From the UHGV virus genome UHGV-0123675: a stretch of 42,627 nt of DNA; one strand, written 5' to 3'. Of this stretch, positions 3,959 to 36,350 are shown piece by piece (position 1 is the stretch's first letter; each line of letters starts with the position of its first letter). This DNA is from a virus. The position numbers were made by a program, and so were the translations under genes. The notes beneath the pieces were generated by a model. That model was not told the DNA's origin. It searched no databases and worked only from the letters and a program-made list of their open reading frames with translations.

Positions 3959-4585
3959 TTAAAGCTCGTACTGAACGCCTTTGACAACGCCAATGATCAG
4001 GCAATTACCGTTAATTGAAATGTTTGGATAGCGTGGATTTAAGGGAACTAAGAACTTTTGAGGCCCATCGATGACAAGTTTTTTTATAGTAGCCTCGTTT
4101 GTCCCATCAAGCCTGGCTACGACTATCTTTCCATGAAGTGGCTCTGCATCTGGATCTACTATGACTGTTGCCCCTTCAGGGATTGTCGGGAGGCCATTAG
4201 GGTTTGTCATCGAATCACCTTTAACCTCCAATGCAAAGGAGCTATCCCCTATCCGGAGTGATGTCTCTATCCACTTATCTACTTCGCTGAAAACTTCTGC
4301 TGCTTTACATTCTGTAAACTGTCCAGCCTGAACCCAGGATATCACCGGAATCCTTTGCATCTTGGTTATCAGATTGCCTTCAAATTCAGTGCCATAAAGT
4401 ATGTAATCAATTGAGGTGTTGAAATACTTTGCAAGTTTAGCTAGTGACTCGCCGCCTGGCACATTAACGTCTTTTTCCCAATACCCAACCGCCACATCAC
4501 TAACACCGCAGAACTTACCCAGTTCTTTCTGCGAGGTTTTGGTTATGCGCCTGAGAGCTTTGATGCGCTGACCGACAGTTTCCAT
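3959..4585 (-). CDS. cI: CI-type prophage repressor (N-terminal HTH, C-terminal S24 LexA-like peptidase domain)
   Basis: N-terminus QRIKALRRITKTSQKELGKFCGVSDVAVGYWE is an XRE-type HTH; C-terminus contains GDSM..G and downstream Lys typical of self-cleaving S24 repressors; divergent from cro-like gene. Confidence 0.9.
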   Translation of the reverse strand: METVGQRIKALRRITKTSQKELGKFCGVSDVAVGYWEKDVNVPGGESLAKLAKYFNTSIDYILYGTEFEGNLITKMQRIPVISWVQAGQFTECKAAEVFSEVDKWIETSLRIGDSSFALEVKGDSMTNPNGLPTIPEGATVIVDPDAEPLHGKIVVARLDGTNEATIKKLVIDGPQKFLVPLNPRYPNISINGNCLIIGVVKGVQYEL

Positions 4586-4687: not shown

Positions 4688-4915
4688 ATGACAACCGATG
4701 ATATTGAAAACTACTTCGGAAATACTGAGAAGGTTGCCGAATTTTTTGGAATCACAAGCGAGGCTGTTTACCAGTGGCGTAATAGAACTGGTCGTCTTAT
4801 CCCAAAAGGGCGTGCAGCTGAAGCAGCCTATCGGACCGGGGGGAAATTGGTTTTTCATCCCGACCTTTACGAAAAGGGTAGCGATGCTTCAGTAAAACTC
4901 AAACCACAGGAATAA
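4688..4915 (+). CDS. cro: Cro-like small HTH regulator
   Basis: 75-aa ORF divergent from cI, RBS AAGGAGG upstream; position and size typical of Cro. Confidence 0.65.
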   Translation: MTTDDIENYFGNTEKVAEFFGITSEAVYQWRNRTGRLIPKGRAAEAAYRTGGKLVFHPDLYEKGSDASVKLKPQE

Positions 4916-4925
4916 GGGGGGAGCT

Positions 4926-5477
4926 GTGGGTAACGAACCTATTTGGAAAGTCGAACGTCAGCCAGCCTGGCTGGTGGCGGCGATAAAAAAAACGATCACC
5001 GATCTACCTGGTGGTTATGCCGAGGCGGCGGAATGGTTGGGCGTGACAGAGAACGCATTGTTTAACCGCCTTCGTGTGGATGGGGATCAGATCTTCCCTA
5101 TGGGATGGGCGATGGTGCTACAGAAAGCCGCCGGTGTTAGCTACATAGCAGATGCGTTTTCTCGTCAAACAGATAACGGGATTCATATCCCTGGTGCAGC
5201 ACCAGAAACAGAGAACGAAGAAATTGGCTTAAAGCTGGCTGAGCTGGTGGGCAGGCTTGGGGATCTGGTCAACGCATACCGTCGATACATCGATGATGGT
5301 GTAGTTGATAAAGGGGAGTGGGACAGTCTGAATGAAATCGCCTACCAGTTCCGGGTAACGCTTATGACGTTCCTGAACCTGATTTCACGAGTTTATTGCC
5401 TTCCAGAAAAGAGTGACGCCCGCGAGTGTGCAGCTCCGGGCGCCTTGGCGAACAACTCTTCGAGTATGGAGAAATAA
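4926..5477 (+). CDS. CII-like regulatory protein (phage 186 CII / CP76-like, tentative)
   Basis: GTG start after GGGGGGAG RBS; AEWLGVTENALFNRLRVDGDQ...F segment resembles the HTH region of phage 186 CII-family proteins; position after cro. Confidence 0.5.
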   Translation: MGNEPIWKVERQPAWLVAAIKKTITDLPGGYAEAAEWLGVTENALFNRLRVDGDQIFPMGWAMVLQKAAGVSYIADAFSRQTDNGIHIPGAAPETENEEIGLKLAELVGRLGDLVNAYRRYIDDGVVDKGEWDSLNEIAYQFRVTLMTFLNLISRVYCLPEKSDARECAAPGALANNSSSMEK

Positions 5478-5482
5478 TCCGC

Positions 5483-5809
5483 ATGAGCAGTTTAACGGCT
5501 TTTAACCGTCTACCGCAACTCAGGATGATCCCGGTTTCGGGTACTCCGTGGTTTCGGTATGAACGCAGATTATCAAACCGCTGGGTTCCGTGTAACCACA
5601 GTAGGGCGGTTTCAATTGTGGGGGGCTACAACCGGAGGGCAAAACGCCTGTGCGCGAACTTAACCGAAGGTTCAAAGACCACCGTGGAGTGCCAGTCCGT
5701 GTTATCCGCTGGGAGCCAGAAACACAGCGCGTTATCTATCTGCGAGATGGCTACCCGCACGAATGTTTCAGCCCACTTGAGCAATTCAGGCAGAAGTTCA
5801 GGGAGATAA
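5483..5809 (+). CDS. Hypothetical protein (109 aa), uncertain coding
   Basis: ORF packed between CII-like stop and replication gene start, but low-complexity S/R-rich translation; could be non-coding. Confidence 0.3.
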   Translation: MSSLTAFNRLPQLRMIPVSGTPWFRYERRLSNRWVPCNHSRAVSIVGGYNRRAKRLCANLTEGSKTTVECQSVLSAGSQKHSALSICEMATRTNVSAHLSNSGRSSGR

Positions 5810-5818
5810 CGGACGATC

Positions 5819-6676
5819 ATGAGCACTAAATTAACCGGCTACGTATGGGATGGTTGCGCGGCGTCGGGCATGAAGTTGTCTAGTGTCGCGATCATGGCTC
5901 GCCTTGCTGATTTCAGCAGCGATGAAGGTGTGTGCTGGCCGTCCATTGAAACTATTGCTCGCCAGCTTGGCGCAGGGCCGAGCACTATCAGAACGGCAAT
6001 CGCAAAGCTTGAAAAAGATGGCTGGCTCACGCGCACACAGCGCCGTAATGGTAACCGTAATGCTTCGAACGTGTACCGCCTGAATGTGGCGAAACTTCAG
6101 GCTGCCGCATTTTCTCAACTGTCAGATTCTGACACGTCAAAATCTGACGCATCAAATTTTGACGCCTCAAAAACTGACCCGTCGAAATCTGGCAAAAATG
6201 GCGGTTTTGACCCGTCAGAATCTGGCGGGGATCCGTCAGTAAAATCAACACAAGATCCACAAGTAAGTTCAAAACCCTCTTGTCCGGTTGCGGCGCAACC
6301 AGACCCTGAAGTTGTGATTACCGACCAGGCAATTTTGGTTCTGACCCATTTGAACAAGATCAGCGGATCCCGGTATCAGAAATCCAAAACATCCCTAGAG
6401 AATATCCGCGCCCGACTGCGTGAGGGATACAGCGTTGCAGACCTGCAACTTGTTATCGACCTGAAGCATGAGCACTGGCACGAGAACGACGAGCAGTACC
6501 AGTACATGCGGCCGGAAACGCTGTTTGGCCCGAAGAAATTCGAAAGCTATCTGCAAAGCGCTACCCGCTGGAATCAGAAGGGACGGCCTAAACGCGCTGA
6601 CTGGGGGGCGAAAAAGCGCGATGTGATGGCTTTAGGTCCGGTTGATACAACGATTCCTGCGGGGTTCAGAGGATGA
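5819..6676 (+). CDS. Replication initiator (lambda O-like: N-terminal winged-helix DNA-binding domain, conserved phage C-terminal domain)
   Basis: N-terminal ARLADFSSDEGVCWPSIETIARQLG..STIRTAIAKLEKDGWL is winged-helix like; C-terminus YMRPETLFGPKKFESY matches the conserved phage replication-protein C-terminus; internal iterons. Confidence 0.8.
   Translation: MSTKLTGYVWDGCAASGMKLSSVAIMARLADFSSDEGVCWPSIETIARQLGAGPSTIRTAIAKLEKDGWLTRTQRRNGNRNASNVYRLNVAKLQAAAFSQLSDSDTSKSDASNFDASKTDPSKSGKNGGFDPSESGGDPSVKSTQDPQVSSKPSCPVAAQPDPEVVITDQAILVLTHLNKISGSRYQKSKTSLENIRARLREGYSVADLQLVIDLKHEHWHENDEQYQYMRPETLFGPKKFESYLQSATRWNQKGRPKRADWGAKKRDVMALGPVDTTIPAGFRG
6124..6240 (+). repeat. Tandem ~15-bp direct repeats (iteron-like putative origin) inside the replication initiator gene
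   Basis: ATTCTGACACGTCAA / AATCTGACGCATCAA / ATTTTGACGCCTCAA / AAACTGACCCGTCGA and more degenerate copies; encode an S/D-rich linker. Confidence 0.6.
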
Positions 6677-7992
6677 CGTTAAACAAATATTGCCAGGCGC
6701 TGGCTGCACTACGTAGCCAACCAGCCCACGAATTGAAAGAAGTTGGCGATCAGTGGCGGACACCGGATCTGCTTTTCTGGGGTATCAACGCGCTATTTGG
6801 TCCATTAGTTCTGGACTTGTTTGCTGACGACGACAACGCGAAGTGCCCGGCATGGTACACCGCCGAAGATAATGCACTGACACAGGACTGGTCTGAACGT
6901 CTGGCAGAACTGGGCGGTGCAGGTTATGGCAACCCACCGTATAGCCGTTCGCAGTACCACGAGAAACAGGCGATCACCGGCATGACGCACATGATGAACT
7001 ACGCAGCAGCCCAGCGCGAAAAGGGCGGTCGCTATGTATTCCTGATAAAAGCTGCGCCGAGCGAAACGTGGTGGCCGGAAGATGCCGATCACATTGTATT
7101 CATCCGCGGGCGCATTGGGTTCGATCTGCCAGTGTGGTTTGTACCTGCTGACGAAAAACAAAAACCCACCAGCGCGTTTTTTGCCGGTGCCATAGCTGTA
7201 TTCGATAAGTCATGGCGTGGCGAGCGGTTCAGCTATATCAACCGTACAGAACTGGAGGCAAAAGGGCGTGCGTTTATGGCTTTGGCACAATTTGCTGCCA
7301 GCAAACCTCAACCAGCAACGTCCACACCAACAGTAGCCGGTAAGCCAGAAACAGAGTTGCCACTCACCCAGAACGATATTTTTGATATCAGCGGTGTCGA
7401 AGCGTGGGCATGTGTTAGAGCTGCGTTCGGCGATAAAGAGGAATACACATTCAGTGAATCGAAGTTTGGGCATACCTGGGCGGCGGATTCTGTCGAAGCA
7501 CCGGAATTCACTCAGGTATCACCATTAACGATCGACAAAGCGAAGCTGCTTATTCGTGAGAGTATTTTGTTCGGTGTGGATGAGTGGCTGTTGTCGATTC
7601 AATTCGATGACGCTGCTGCGCGCCTGGATATGTCGGAACGTATTCGCACTGTTGCCCTTGAAGCATCCGGTGAATATGGCATGAACAGTGCTGATTTCAT
7701 TGCAGCTATGGGAAGCCTGGATGTTTCCAGTTGGTCCAATATTCGCCACATCCGCATGCACATCCGTGAGAAAGCTAAACCAGTGGCGGATCCGCTTCCC
7801 GAGTCCCGTATCTGGTCGTTGGAGGTTGGAATTGTATTCGACCAGGTTGATGGCGCTGACATGCTGAATGAATCACAGCAGAACAAGCTGAAAGCCAACA
7901 TCAATCAACTCTGGCTGGAACGAACGGCCACCAGCGAAATTATCACAATTGCGCGTGGTCTTGTTCGCAATATGCGGGGAGTAGCCGCGTGA
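6673..7992 (+). CDS. Phage Dam-family N6-adenine DNA methyltransferase fused to a ~250-aa C-terminal domain of unknown function
   Basis: N-terminal WRTPDLLF...LDLFADDDNAKCPAWYT..NAL..DW...YGNPPYS is the phage Dam-type signature with NPPY catalytic motif. Confidence 0.8.
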   Translation: MTLNKYCQALAALRSQPAHELKEVGDQWRTPDLLFWGINALFGPLVLDLFADDDNAKCPAWYTAEDNALTQDWSERLAELGGAGYGNPPYSRSQYHEKQAITGMTHMMNYAAAQREKGGRYVFLIKAAPSETWWPEDADHIVFIRGRIGFDLPVWFVPADEKQKPTSAFFAGAIAVFDKSWRGERFSYINRTELEAKGRAFMALAQFAASKPQPATSTPTVAGKPETELPLTQNDIFDISGVEAWACVRAAFGDKEEYTFSESKFGHTWAADSVEAPEFTQVSPLTIDKAKLLIRESILFGVDEWLLSIQFDDAAARLDMSERIRTVALEASGEYGMNSADFIAAMGSLDVSSWSNIRHIRMHIREKAKPVADPLPESRIWSLEVGIVFDQVDGADMLNESQQNKLKANINQLWLERTATSEIITIARGLVRNMRGVAA

Positions 7993-8375
7993 AACTGCTC
8001 CTGCCTTTTCCCCCGAGCGTGAACACTTACTGGCGCGCCCCTAACAAGGGGCCGCTAGCCGGTCGTCACCTCATTAGCGCTGATGGCCGTAAATACCAGA
8101 GCGCTGCCTGCGTGGCAATCATTGAGCAATTACGACGCCTTCCAAAGCCATCGACTGAACTTGCAGCGGTAGAAATCACCCTGTACCCGCCGGATGCGCG
8201 CCGCCGGGATATCGATAATTACAACAAAGCCCTGTTTGACGCGCTGACGCATGCGGGTGTCTGGGAAGACGACAGCCAGATTAAGCGCATGCTGGTGGAA
8301 TGGGGACCCGTTGTGCCGAAAGGTCGGGTAGAGATAACGATCAGCAGATATGAACCGGCGGGTGCAGCCGCCTGA
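7989..8375 (+). CDS. rusA: Holliday-junction resolvase RusA
   Basis: GTG start overlapping upstream stop; LPFPPSVNTYW...DARRRDIDNYNKALFDALT..GVWEDDSQI matches RusA family. Confidence 0.9.
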   Translation: MKLLLPFPPSVNTYWRAPNKGPLAGRHLISADGRKYQSAACVAIIEQLRRLPKPSTELAAVEITLYPPDARRRDIDNYNKALFDALTHAGVWEDDSQIKRMLVEWGPVVPKGRVEITISRYEPAGAAA

Positions 8376-34585: not shown

Positions 34586-36350
34586 TTACTACTCAATTAT
34601 CACTAACCGGGGTAAAGAACTGGAGGCGGAGGCGCTTGCCAGTGGTCGCCTGATTGTACTGACTCACTTTGTGGTGGGTGACAGTAGTGGCAAGCAGGTC
34701 AAACCTGATCCGTCGCAAATCCGGTTAATCAATGAAACGTACCGGGGAGATATCGCTGAGCTGGTGGTGTCCCCGGAGCAGTCCACACAGTTAATGGCAA
34801 AAATCGTCCTGCCGACCGGGGTTGGTGGATTCACCGTTCGCGAAGTCGGTTTAATGACTGACGCCGGAGAGCTTTACGCGGTGGCAAACTGCCCATCGAT
34901 CGATAAGCCGGTTGGTGGTGTCAGCGTTAATATGCAGTTTCGCCTGGCAGTATCAGATACCTCAAATATCACGCTGAATGTTGCAACCGGCGACGGGTTA
35001 TTTCTGCGTATTGACCAGTACCTGAAAGAGATAAAAGCGCGGGGCGCGGAAGCACAAAAAACATCGCGTGAATCCATTGGTGTCCTCGATAGCACAACAC
35101 AACAAAGAGGGCTGGTTCAACTTAGCAGTTCGGTGAACAGCACCAGTGAAACGCAGGCCGCCACCCCGGCAGCAGTTAAGATCGCAATGGATAATGCGAA
35201 TGCGCGACTGGCTAAAGACCGGAACGGCAGTGATATTCCTAATGTCGCATTATTTCTACAAAACCTTGGCCTGGTAGAAACGATAAATCGAGCAGCCGGT
35301 TCGCTGCAAAAAAATCAGAACGGCGCTGATGTACCGCAACCGGATTCGTTTGTACGTAATATCGGTGCCGGGCGAGCTTTCAGTGGCTCAGTCAGTATTG
35401 GTGGAGGCGGTAACTGGACAACAGCGGACTTTATCGTCTGGCTTGAAAATCAGGGGGCATTTAATCATCCCTATTGGGTATGCAAAGGTTCATGGTCCTA
35501 CGGTGATAACAGGGTTATTACGGATACGGGATGCGGGAATATCAGTCTTGCTGGCTCGGTAGTTGAGGTTATGGGAGTGCGTGATGCGATGACTATTCGT
35601 ATCACCACGCCAACCACCACAGCAGGAAATGGAACGCCTTCCGCTCAGTTTACCTACATCAATCATGGTGATGGTTACTTGCCAGGCTGGCACAGGGATT
35701 TTAATACAGCAAATCCTCCTTATGAGTATTACCCCGTAGGCGCACCCATACCATGGCCTTCGGATATACCGCCTGCTAACCATGCGCTTATGCAGGGCCA
35801 ATCGTTTGATAAATCTGCCTATCCATTACTTGCTGTGGCATATCCTGTGGGGGTTATTCCTGATATGCGTGGTCAGACGATAAAAGGCAACCCAACAGGT
35901 AGAGGGGTATTAACACAAGAACAGGATGGTATTAAGTGGCACGATCACGGCGCAACGATCGCAAGTACCGATCTTGGAAGCAGGGATACAACCGGGTTTG
36001 ATTATGGCACCAAATCGGTATCAGTTTTTGACTACGGTACTAAATCAACAACCGGCGCGGGGGCTCACAATCACCCTATATCCGGGAGAACGCAGTTTGG
36101 TCAGGCAGGGGATGTCGTTGCAATGTCCAATACTGGCTCTGACAGAACAAACTGGGGAGCTGTTGGTGGCGTTGGCGACCATGCTCACGCCGTAGGAATT
36201 GGTGCACATGATCACGTGGTGGGTATTGGAGCGCATGCTCACTCTGTTTACATTGGCGCGCACAGCCATGGTGTGACGGTTTCACCATCTGGTCAGGCTG
36301 AAAACACTGTAAAAAATACGGCATTTAATTATTTAGTGAGGCTTGCATAA
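34578..36350 (+). CDS. Tail fibre protein (P2 gpH-like N-terminus; His-rich GxGAHxH repeats at C-terminal tip)
   Basis: GLVQLSSSVNSTSETQAATPAAVK matches the conserved gpH motif; start ATG 34578 overlaps gpI stop (ORF track starts 34497). Confidence 0.85.
   Translation: MADYYSIITNRGKELEAEALASGRLIVLTHFVVGDSSGKQVKPDPSQIRLINETYRGDIAELVVSPEQSTQLMAKIVLPTGVGGFTVREVGLMTDAGELYAVANCPSIDKPVGGVSVNMQFRLAVSDTSNITLNVATGDGLFLRIDQYLKEIKARGAEAQKTSRESIGVLDSTTQQRGLVQLSSSVNSTSETQAATPAAVKIAMDNANARLAKDRNGSDIPNVALFLQNLGLVETINRAAGSLQKNQNGADVPQPDSFVRNIGAGRAFSGSVSIGGGGNWTTADFIVWLENQGAFNHPYWVCKGSWSYGDNRVITDTGCGNISLAGSVVEVMGVRDAMTIRITTPTTTAGNGTPSAQFTYINHGDGYLPGWHRDFNTANPPYEYYPVGAPIPWPSDIPPANHALMQGQSFDKSAYPLLAVAYPVGVIPDMRGQTIKGNPTGRGVLTQEQDGIKWHDHGATIASTDLGSRDTTGFDYGTKSVSVFDYGTKSTTGAGAHNHPISGRTQFGQAGDVVAMSNTGSDRTNWGAVGGVGDHAHAVGIGAHDHVVGIGAHAHSVYIGAHSHGVTVSPSGQAENTVKNTAFNYLVRLA

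What the first reader, a model, noticed from the sequence alone, without database searches (positions are those of the whole stretch)
6124..6240. Iteron array embedded in the replication initiator gene
At least four tandem 15-bp repeats with a TGAC-N3-TC core (plus degenerate copies) lie in the linker between the N- and C-terminal domains of the O-like protein, as the lambda origin lies inside gene O. The repeats encode a Ser/Asp-rich low-complexity linker, so the DNA element and the protein linker are constrained together.
Basis: partly seen in the sequence, partly recalled or inferred. Interest (0 to 1): 0.35.

Follow-up and report, generated by a model that had tools for sequence, protein, structure and literature searches.

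The report
Replication origin inside prophage initiator gene
A Citrobacter-type prophage carries what is very probably its replication origin (repeated initiator-binding sites, an A/T-rich stretch and a small palindrome) inside the gene for its own replication initiator, as phage lambda does, so this is a well-supported but ordinary example of a textbook arrangement in a protein family where it had not been described.

Summary
Six to seven copies of a dyad-symmetric 13-bp site (GTCAGA-A-TCTGAC type) lie at 6121-6226, mostly 15 bp apart. They sit in the linker between a winged-helix N-domain (HTH_36) and a Phg_2220_C C-domain of the 285-aa protein encoded at 5819-6676.

Three comparative results argue for a DNA element rather than a slippage-prone linker.
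- In 43-48 homologues from many Enterobacterales genera, synonymous sites are nearly frozen across about 6104-6300, while they drift freely in both flanking domains.
- The repeat core changes together with the recognition helix and wing of the N-domain, giving at least three specificity classes, and it stays palindromic each time.
- Genes recombine just after the element. The N-domain plus repeats travels as one module and is found with two unrelated C-domains.

To the right of the repeats lie a class-independent A/T-rich stretch with two conserved GATC sites and a 23-nt imperfect palindrome.

The lambda-like origin reading is supported. However, the protein is not a member of the lambda O family, and neither binding nor origin activity has been tested. 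The principle is textbook, so I rate this a new member of a known kind with modest interest.

The parts
5819..6676 (+). Replication-initiator gene (285 aa) that contains the element
   Evidence: ORF list. Pfam HTH_36 plus Phg_2220_C. PHROG replication-initiation and O-like families, E = 5e-81 to 6e-50. NCBIfam TIGR02220.
5885..6028 (+). Winged helix-turn-helix DNA-binding domain (aa 23-70; the wing runs to about aa 90)
   Evidence: Pfam HTH_36, E = 4.7e-12, plus weaker GntR and MarR hits. The recognition helix STIRTAI and wing GNRNASN co-vary with the repeat core across homologues.
6104..6304 (.). Whole zone under DNA-level (synonymous-site) constraint; proposed origin
   Evidence: Sliding-window synonymous conservation is 0.86-0.99 here against 0.45-0.70 elsewhere, in 43 full-length homologues. 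The codon-position entropy ratio falls to 1.0-1.8. The single-strand DNA fold has z = -5.1.
6121..6195 (.). Five tandem 15-bp units, each with a 13-bp dyad-symmetric core (iterons 1-5)
   Evidence: In 260 units from 48 loci the core TCARAWTCTGA carries 1.1-2.0 bits per position and the flanks 0.5-0.96 bits. Spacing is 15 bp in 176 of 212 neighbouring pairs.
6199..6226 (.). One degenerate unit (6199-6211) and the last, well-kept iteron (6214-6226, GTCAGAATCTGGC)
   Evidence: The last iteron changes with specificity class in homologues: GTCAATGGTTGAC in class B, and GTCCAGAATCTGGA or GTCCAAAATCTGGAC in class C.
6230..6280 (.). Class-independent A/T-rich stretch with two GATC sites (6230, 6254); candidate DNA-unwinding region
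   Evidence: The most A/T-rich 40-mer of the gene starts at 6235-6236 (67.5% A+T; window mean 51%). The stretch is conserved across iteron classes A, B and C, with 2-3 GATC sites and 63-72% A+T in most loci.
6282..6304 (.). 23-nt imperfect palindrome GTCCGGTTGCG-G-CGCAACCAGAC
   Evidence: Inverted repeat I10. In 27 distinct homologous sequences, 79.8% of cells are paired against 12-41% when the partner is slid, and 4 of 11 pairs show changes on both sides.
6338..6556 (+). Phg_2220_C C-terminal domain (aa 174-246); presumed partner-recruiting domain
   Evidence: Pfam, E = 1.5e-23. Helical with pLDDT about 80-90 in an otherwise poor model. Exchanged as a module against an unrelated C-domain in SfIV-type genes.

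Best explanation
The segment at about 6104-6304 is the prophage's replication origin, embedded in the gene of the initiator that recognises it.

Proposed mechanism:
1. Dimers of the N-terminal winged-helix domain bind the dyad-symmetric 13-bp iterons. There are five packed at 15-bp spacing, then a degenerate one and a final good one.
2. The resulting nucleoprotein complex destabilises the adjacent A/T-rich stretch (6230-6280).
3. The C-terminal Phg_2220_C domain then brings in the host helicase machinery.
4. Rightward early transcription from the cro-side promoter runs through the site.

Because the element is translated, its 15-bp period reads as a 5-residue Ser/Asp/Lys-rich repeat in a flexible linker. 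Copies can therefore be gained or lost in frame.

Shown here: the anatomy, the DNA-level selection, the co-variation with the DNA-binding domain, and the modular exchange.

Inferred only: initiator binding, unwinding at the A/T-rich stretch, helicase recruitment, and origin activity itself.
For: (1) Anatomy. Six to seven palindromic sites, then the most A/T-rich 40-mer of the gene, then a small palindrome. All lie between two folded domains.

(2) Selection on DNA rather than on protein. In 48 class-A homologues the mean share of the major synonymous codon is 0.94-0.96 in the element, against 0.52-0.64 in the N-domain. The mapped zone is aa 96-160. Third-position entropy is 0.46-0.60 there against 1.23 in the N-domain, while first- and second-position entropy is as high or higher. 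The segment is therefore not simply young. Within each unit the core is conserved and the 2-3-nt spacer drifts.

(3) Specificity co-variation. Recognition helix STVRTAI with wing GNRN(A/T)SN goes with GTCAAAATCTGAC. STVIT-type helices go with TTCAGAnTCTGAA or TCCAnAATCTGGA. TTVSAAI with GGRN(L/V)SN goes with TCAAnnnTTGA. The changes are symmetric, so the dyad is kept, while the encoded peptide changes completely (SDxSK becomes IDPSN, TVEG and so on).

(4) Module structure. Nucleotides 1-440 of the gene (N-domain plus repeats) match SfIV-like genes that have a different C-domain. Nucleotides 453-858 match Salmonella phage 118970_sal3, whose unrelated N-domain brings its own 23-bp dyad repeats. 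In 1850 of 5426 complete E. coli genomes the match breaks at the same point. Both C-domain types combine with iteron classes A and B.

(5) Context. The gene follows cI, cro and a cII-like gene. A relative in an O157:H7 prophage is followed by an IstB/DnaC-like ATPase. No other comparable repeat array exists in the 42.6-kb window.

(6) Precedent. Lambda and Stx-phage origins consist of iterons plus an A/T-rich tract in the middle of gene O, and each iteron is an imperfect inverted repeat (PMC7466680). P22 and L gene 18 each carry their own internal repeats (PMC8022706). SPP1 oriL lies inside gene 38 (PMC6316719).
Against: - There is no experimental datum for any member of this family in the literature I could search.
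- The A/T-rich stretch is only 63-72% A+T.
- Fifteen-bp spacing puts neighbouring dimers on nearly opposite faces of the helix, unlike the roughly two-turn spacing recalled for lambda. The stoichiometry and the binding unit are therefore uncertain. The unit could be 13 bp, a 30-bp super-repeat (Tandem Repeats Finder scores period 30 higher), or half-sites.
- The window has no helicase-loader gene next to the initiator; a Dam methyltransferase fusion follows instead. The recruitment step is thus unexplained.
- The structural model was too poor to confirm a dimeric winged helix.
Confidence: 0.8

Rival explanations
1. The palindromic sites are operators. The winged-helix protein binds inside its own gene to autoregulate or block early rightward transcription, and the true origin lies elsewhere.
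For: The N-domain also resembles GntR, MarR and PaaX repressors, and NCBI names many copies 'GntR family transcriptional regulator'. Dyad sites that co-vary with a recognition helix fit any DNA-binding protein.
Against: - PHROG families for this protein are replication initiators.
- It sits at the O position of a lambdoid early operon, and in relatives a DnaC-like loader follows.
- Five to seven packed sites followed by a conserved A/T-rich stretch is origin anatomy rather than operator anatomy.
- No other iteron-like array exists in the window.
- Origin and autoregulatory roles are not mutually exclusive.
Confidence: 0.08
2. The zone is a conserved homology 'joint' between exchangeable modules. 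It looks conserved because recombination spreads it repeatedly among phages, not because it has a function of its own.
For: Mosaic breakpoints fall exactly at its right edge. An O157:H7 relative shares only the 45 nt at 6214-6258 with the window at 95.6% identity. The A/T-rich stretch is shared by all iteron classes and both C-domain types.
Against: - First- and second-codon positions in the zone vary as much as in the flanks, so the zone is not young. Only the third-position excess is missing.
- Variation inside the array is confined to the spacers between cores.
- The iterons themselves differ between classes, so they are not a shared joint.
- A functional origin would also act as a recombination joint, so this reading explains at most the A/T-rich stretch.
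Confidence: 0.05
3. The constraint acts on the mRNA. The palindromes form hairpins that tune translation, stability or ribosome pausing in the linker.
For: The strand folds much better than shuffles (z = -5.1). The 23-nt palindrome shows some two-sided changes.
Against: - No Rfam family matches; there are only sub-threshold hairpin hits.
- Each unit is a short self-complementary site with a conserved central sequence, and that sequence changes with the protein's recognition helix. An RNA role does not predict this.
- Strand-symmetric dyads are typical of sites for dimeric proteins.
Confidence: 0.04
4. This is an ordinary low-complexity Ser/Asp linker generated by replication slippage, with no function at the DNA level.
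For: Copy number varies from 3 to 7 between homologues. The linker is predicted as coil.
Against: - Six-fold degenerate Ser is fixed as TCA or TCT at given positions in 48 sequences from many genera.
- Codon resampling never reproduces the motif count (0 of 20,000).
- The peptide changes completely between classes, while the 15-bp period and the dyad are kept.
Confidence: 0.03

Closest known systems
ori-lambda inside gene O of phage lambda and Stx phages (P27, 933W)
   Same: Several initiator-binding repeats, each an imperfect inverted repeat, lie in the middle of the initiator gene and are followed on one side by an A/T-rich tract (PMC7466680). The N-terminal part plus origin forms a specificity module and the C-terminal part is exchangeable. 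Extra iterons add residues to the protein (PMC7466680), which parallels the 5-residue steps here.
   Different: - The protein family is different. There is no Pfam Phage_rep_O match; the protein is HTH_36 plus Phg_2220_C.
- Iterons are 13 bp at 15-bp spacing, against 19-bp iterons in lambda (PMC7466680).
- The A/T-rich tract is weaker, at 63-72% A+T.
- No P-like loader gene follows in this window.
Gene 18 of Salmonella phages P22 and L
   Same: These are distantly related or unrelated origin-binding proteins, each with its own short repeats inside the coding region: four ~20-bp repeats in P22 and six 11-bp repeats in L. The published reading is the same as mine, and for L it also rests on sequence alone (PMC8022706).
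   Different: The repeat sequences and protein families differ. Those phages carry a DnaB-type helicase gene (gene 12) next door (PMC8022706), and this window does not.
oriL inside gene 38 of Bacillus phage SPP1
   Same: Direct repeats bound by the origin-binding protein, plus an A/T-rich unwinding element, all located within the initiator's own gene (PMC6316719).
   Different: The host is Gram-positive and the protein is unrelated. SPP1 has a second origin copy (oriR) elsewhere and its own loader and helicase (PMC6316719). Only one array exists in this window.
Iteron plasmids with winged-helix Rep proteins (pPS10 RepA, R6K pi, F RepE); comparison from general knowledge
   Same: A winged-helix initiator binds an array of directly repeated sites next to an A/T-rich unwinding region.
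   Different: In those plasmids the iterons lie outside the rep gene and are about 17-22 bp, spaced at about two helical turns. No Rep_3-type Pfam match was found here.

Membership tests
Lambdoid intragenic origin (iterons plus A/T-rich tract inside the initiator gene) | [quoted passage not shown] | tested here: met
   Six to seven sites at 6121-6226, which is aa 101-136 of 285. There are 3-7 copies at the same place in all 63 usable homologues.
Lambdoid intragenic origin (iterons plus A/T-rich tract inside the initiator gene) | Each repeat has internal dyad symmetry | tested here: met
   GTCAGA-N-TCTGAC. The consensus has 5-6 of 6 arm positions complementary in nearly all class-A loci. Classes B and C are also palindromic.
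Lambdoid intragenic origin (iterons plus A/T-rich tract inside the initiator gene) | A/T-rich tract directly flanking the repeats | tested here: met
   The most A/T-rich 40-mer of the gene starts at 6235 (67.5% A+T), 9 nt after the last iteron. It is 63-72% A+T in most homologues. This is weaker than I recall for lambda.
Lambdoid intragenic origin (iterons plus A/T-rich tract inside the initiator gene) | Repeat sequence is specific to, and travels with, the N-terminal DNA-binding domain | tested here: met
   Three helix/wing classes go with three cores. The unrelated N-domain of phage 118970_sal3 carries different 23-bp repeats. The mosaic break lies after the element.
Lambdoid intragenic origin (iterons plus A/T-rich tract inside the initiator gene) | The initiator binds the repeats, and the segment supports initiator-dependent replication | not testable with these tools
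   This needs footprinting, EMSA and origin cloning. No paper on this family was found.
Lambda O protein family (Pfam Phage_rep_O) | Sequence match to the family profile | tested here: not met
   No such family appears among Pfam hits at E <= 0.01; the hits are HTH_36, Phg_2220_C and generic winged-helix families. PHROG 'O-like' labels are functional names.
HTH_36 / Phg_2220_C (TIGR02220) phage proteins | Both domains score above the curated cut-offs | tested here: met
   HTH_36 scores 46 bits (cut-off 25) and Phg_2220_C 83 bits (cut-off 27). TIGR02220 scores 66.9 bits (cut-off 66.65).
DnaD-like initiators / helicase-loader adaptors | DnaD N-terminal domain or DnaD-like C-terminal domain | tested here: inconclusive
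   DnaD_N scores 22.2 bits, below its cut-off of 27. PHROG 'DnaD-like helicase loader' families hit only weakly, at E = 1.5e-8 and 7.9e-7. There is no PDB relative by sequence or by fold.
YdaU family (Rac prophage replication module) | Homology to K-12 YdaU | tested here: not met
   K-12 YdaU has an unrelated sequence and no 15-bp array. It shares only the C-terminal IPxGFRG ending.

The most novel reading that the evidence does not exclude
The roughly 75-bp segment to the right of the iterons (twin GATC sites, an A-rich tract and a 23-nt palindrome, 6230-6304) may be a universal 'firing cassette'. It would be shared by initiators of different DNA specificity and by both C-domain types. It would serve both as the unwinding and helicase-entry site and as the joint at which replication modules are shuffled. 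Its two conserved GATC sites would make firing sensitive to methylation by the Dam-type methyltransferase encoded immediately downstream (6673-7992).
Probability: 0.15. Interest if true: 0.5.

Novelty: new member of a known kind. Interest (0 to 1): 0.3.

Why it matters
It gives a concrete, testable origin for a very common enterobacterial prophage replication module. The module occurs in about a third of complete E. coli genomes, in Shigella serotype-converting phages SfII and SfIV, and in many Citrobacter and Salmonella prophages. Databases label the gene only as 'helix-turn-helix' or 'GntR family regulator'.

The family also offers a natural series of matched recognition-helix and iteron variants, which could be used to study initiator specificity. 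Its 15-bp, in-frame repeat period shows plainly how one DNA stretch can serve as both origin and protein linker. It does not change the known picture of how lambdoid phages start replication.

Tried and rejected
- **Structure.** A single-sequence AlphaFold model was poor (mean pLDDT 54.5, N-domain below 62). It shows only a coil linker at aa 103-162 and a helical C-domain. Foldseek against the PDB found nothing at E < 1. PDB sequence search gave only weak MarR and PaaX winged-helix hits.
- **Rac prophage lead.** I asked whether the O157 relative's YdaT-to-DnaC-like context means the family equals YdaU and origin oriJ. This was rejected: K-12 YdaU is unrelated and has no array.
- **RNA family.** Rfam gave only sub-threshold miRNA-like hairpin hits.
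- **Host DnaA boxes.** There are none near the element, and the window count equals chance.
- **Overlapping gene as the cause of synonymous constraint.** No alternative frame stays open through the zone across 48 loci.
- **Plasmid evidence for autonomous replication.** The module occurs on some 37-64-kb non-mobilizable circular records. These may be circular phage genomes, so the evidence is inconclusive.
- **Literature.** Searches for the family, its Pfam name, SfIV replication and the iteron sequence found no description of this origin.
- **First clustering of C-domains.** It was too permissive and was redone.
- **Homologue search.** The search for homologous proteins returned only near-identical proteins, which were of no use for diversity.

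Full report
**What is there.**
The ORF at 5819-6676 (+, 285 aa) lies in a lambdoid early-right operon. In order, the operon holds a cI-like repressor (3959-4585, minus strand), a cro-like gene (4688-4915), a cII-like gene (4926-5477), a DUF4222 ORF (5650-5829), this gene, a Dam-methyltransferase fusion (6673-7992) and RusA (7989-8375). The protein has an HTH_36 winged-helix domain (aa 23-70) and a Phg_2220_C domain (aa 174-246). PHROGs places it in replication-initiation and 'O-like' families. It is 98-100% identical to proteins of Citrobacter freundii and Salmonella prophages. The window's structural genes resemble Citrobacter phage Chris1.

**Check of the observation.**
Tandem Repeats Finder and the repeat finder confirm a 15-bp-period array at 6121-6191, with further in-register copies to 6229. 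Each unit holds a 13-bp dyad (GTCAGA-N-TCTGAC; the most common form is GTCAAAATCTGAC) followed by a 2-nt spacer. I count five tandem units (6121-6195), a degenerate unit (6199-6211) and a last good unit (6214-6226).

The motif is confined to this spot. Seven of its 8 matches at up to 2 mismatches in the window lie here, against 1.18 expected. With the peptide held fixed and synonymous codons resampled, none of 20,000 samples reached the observed motif count or half-site count. That test alone cannot exclude shared descent of the copies, so I turned to homologues.

**Comparative evidence.**
A scan of one genome per species gave 64 loci with N-domains 99-54% identical, spread across Enterobacterales. 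Every usable locus has a periodic array at the same place, with 3-7 copies.

1. *Selection acts on DNA.*
   - In 48 'class A' genes the major-codon share at conserved degenerate residues is 0.52-0.64 in the N-domain but 0.94-0.96 in the repeats and the segment after them. Six-fold degenerate Ser is always TCA or TCT at a given position.
   - A sliding window over 43 full-length genes maps the constrained zone to aa 96-160, which is nt ~6104-6300.
   - Third-position entropy there is 0.46-0.60 against 1.23 in the N-domain. First- and second-position entropy is as high or higher. The ratio of third-position to first/second-position entropy falls from 4.8 to 1.0-1.8. The zone has therefore diverged, but not in the way a protein-constrained sequence does.
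   - Inside the units, the core TCARAWTCTGA carries 1.1-2.0 bits per position and the spacers 0.5-0.96 bits.
   - No alternative reading frame is kept open through the zone, and no Rfam family matches.

2. *The repeat co-varies with the DNA-binding domain.*
   - Class A: helix STVRTAI with wing GNRN(A/T)SN goes with GTCAAAATCTGAC.
   - Class C (Rahnella, Klebsiella spallanzanii, Tatumella): STVIT-type helices go with TTCAGAnTCTGAA or TCCAnAATCTGGA.
   - Class B (an O157:H7 prophage, Erwinia, Edwardsiella, Morganella): TTVSAAI with GGRN(L/V)SN goes with TCAAnnnTTGA, for example GTCAACGGTTGAC.
   - The changes are symmetric, so the dyad survives, while the encoded peptide changes completely. This is what a dimeric protein and its site would be expected to do.

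3. *The element travels with the N-domain.*
   - Nucleotides 1-440 of the gene match SfIV, SfII and many E. coli prophages whose C-domain is unrelated.
   - Nucleotides 453-858 match Salmonella phage 118970_sal3. Its unrelated N-domain carries its own 23-bp dyad repeats (TTGCGG-N5-CCGCAA type) in the equivalent position.
   - The break at nt 440 recurs in the matches found in 1850 of 5426 complete E. coli genomes.
   - Both C-domain types are found with iteron classes A and B.

**What lies to the right of the repeats.**
After the last iteron comes a segment conserved in all classes: GATCCGTCAGTAAAWTCAAAACAWGATCCATCAGATAAAAAAC. It has two (sometimes three) GATC sites and 63-72% A+T. In the window this is 6230-6280, and it contains the most A/T-rich 40-mer of the gene (67.5% against 51% for the window).

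It is followed by a 23-nt imperfect palindrome (6282-6304). In 27 distinct sequences, 79.8% of cells pair, against 12-41% when the partner is slid, and 4 of 11 pairs show two-sided changes. That is suggestive but not strong. The order of iterons followed by an A/T-rich tract is that of ori-lambda as described in PMC7466680.

**Mechanism.**
I propose that initiator dimers occupy the iterons through the winged helix. The complex then opens the adjacent A/T-rich stretch, and the C-domain recruits host helicase machinery, with early transcription passing through. Only the anatomy, the selection, the co-variation and the modularity are shown here; binding, unwinding and recruitment are inference by analogy (PMC7466680, PMC8022706, PMC6316719).

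Several points remain open:
- Fifteen-bp spacing puts neighbouring sites on nearly opposite helix faces. Tandem Repeats Finder prefers a 30-bp super-period, and class B clearly alternates two unit types.
- No loader gene follows the initiator in this window, although an O157 relative has an IstB/DnaC-like ATPase.

**Comparison with what is known.**
Functionally this is the lambda, P22 and SPP1 arrangement. It is not a member of the lambda O protein family, nor of YdaU. The idea that distant lambdoid initiators each carry their own iterons inside their genes is already in print (PMC8022706). I found no description of this particular family's origin or of its iteron sequence. I therefore rate it a new member of a known kind.

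**Verdict.**
My confidence that this is the origin is about 0.8. Interest is modest at 0.3: a specialist would not be surprised, but the annotation gain is real and the helix-iteron series is useful.

Noticed in passing
window 6650-6676; also L001, L004, L072:7377-8234 and most of L006-L068: Most of these initiators end in (I/V)PxGFR(G/S). This holds for both unrelated C-domain types and also for the non-homologous Rac prophage protein YdaU (IPPGFRG). It looks like a short docking motif shared by unrelated phage initiators.
   Followed up: partly
window 6673-7992: The gene after the initiator overlaps its stop codon (ATGA). It encodes a 439-aa protein with an N-terminal Dam-type N6-adenine methyltransferase domain (aa 19-199) and a long C-terminal extension with no Pfam match. 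It sits next to an origin whose A/T-rich stretch keeps two GATC sites in nearly all homologues.
   Followed up: partly
window 5650-5829: A 59-aa DUF4222 ORF overlaps the initiator start by 11 nt and accompanies the module in most E. coli hits. It is absent upstream of the phiNP and O157 relatives, so it is not needed to specify the iterons.
   Followed up: partly
window 5819-8375: No P-, DnaC- or DnaB-like gene lies in the replication region of this prophage. The O157:H7 relative has an IstB/DnaC-like ATPase directly downstream (L004 3027-3767).
   Followed up: partly
L003 2434-3747 (Salmonella phage 118970_sal3): A 437-aa protein annotated 'putative transcriptional activator' has an N-domain with no Pfam match and its own 23-bp dyad repeats (2813-2906). 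These are followed by a 12-bp repeat (2956-2998), then the same Phg_2220_C domain as the window, then a further ~110-aa extension after an internal IPEGFRG.
   Followed up: partly
L063 (Tatumella saanichensis), gene from 1501: Here the linker array has a 45-bp (15-residue) unit, EPSEPQGPKSGLSESEGLKTG, repeated several times, instead of 15-bp units.
   Followed up: no
L005 2501-2707 (E. coli K-12 CPS-53/KpLE1 prophage): The K-12 pseudogene next to yfdN and yfdM has lost its N-terminus but still carries the iteron region (window gene nt 234-440 at 86% identity). K-12 laboratory strains thus hold an orphan copy of this putative origin.
   Followed up: no
window 36180-36242: This is the only other tandem repeat in the window: a 27-bp unit with 2.3 copies. 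A single 2-mismatch iteron-like site lies nearby at 36020-36032.
   Followed up: no
L070 (CP085522.1, 41.5 kb) and L071 (NZ_CP146678.1, 64 kb): The module occurs on non-mobilizable circular E. coli records deposited as plasmids, with no replicon type shown. They may be circular phage genomes or phage-plasmids that use this origin.
   Followed up: partly
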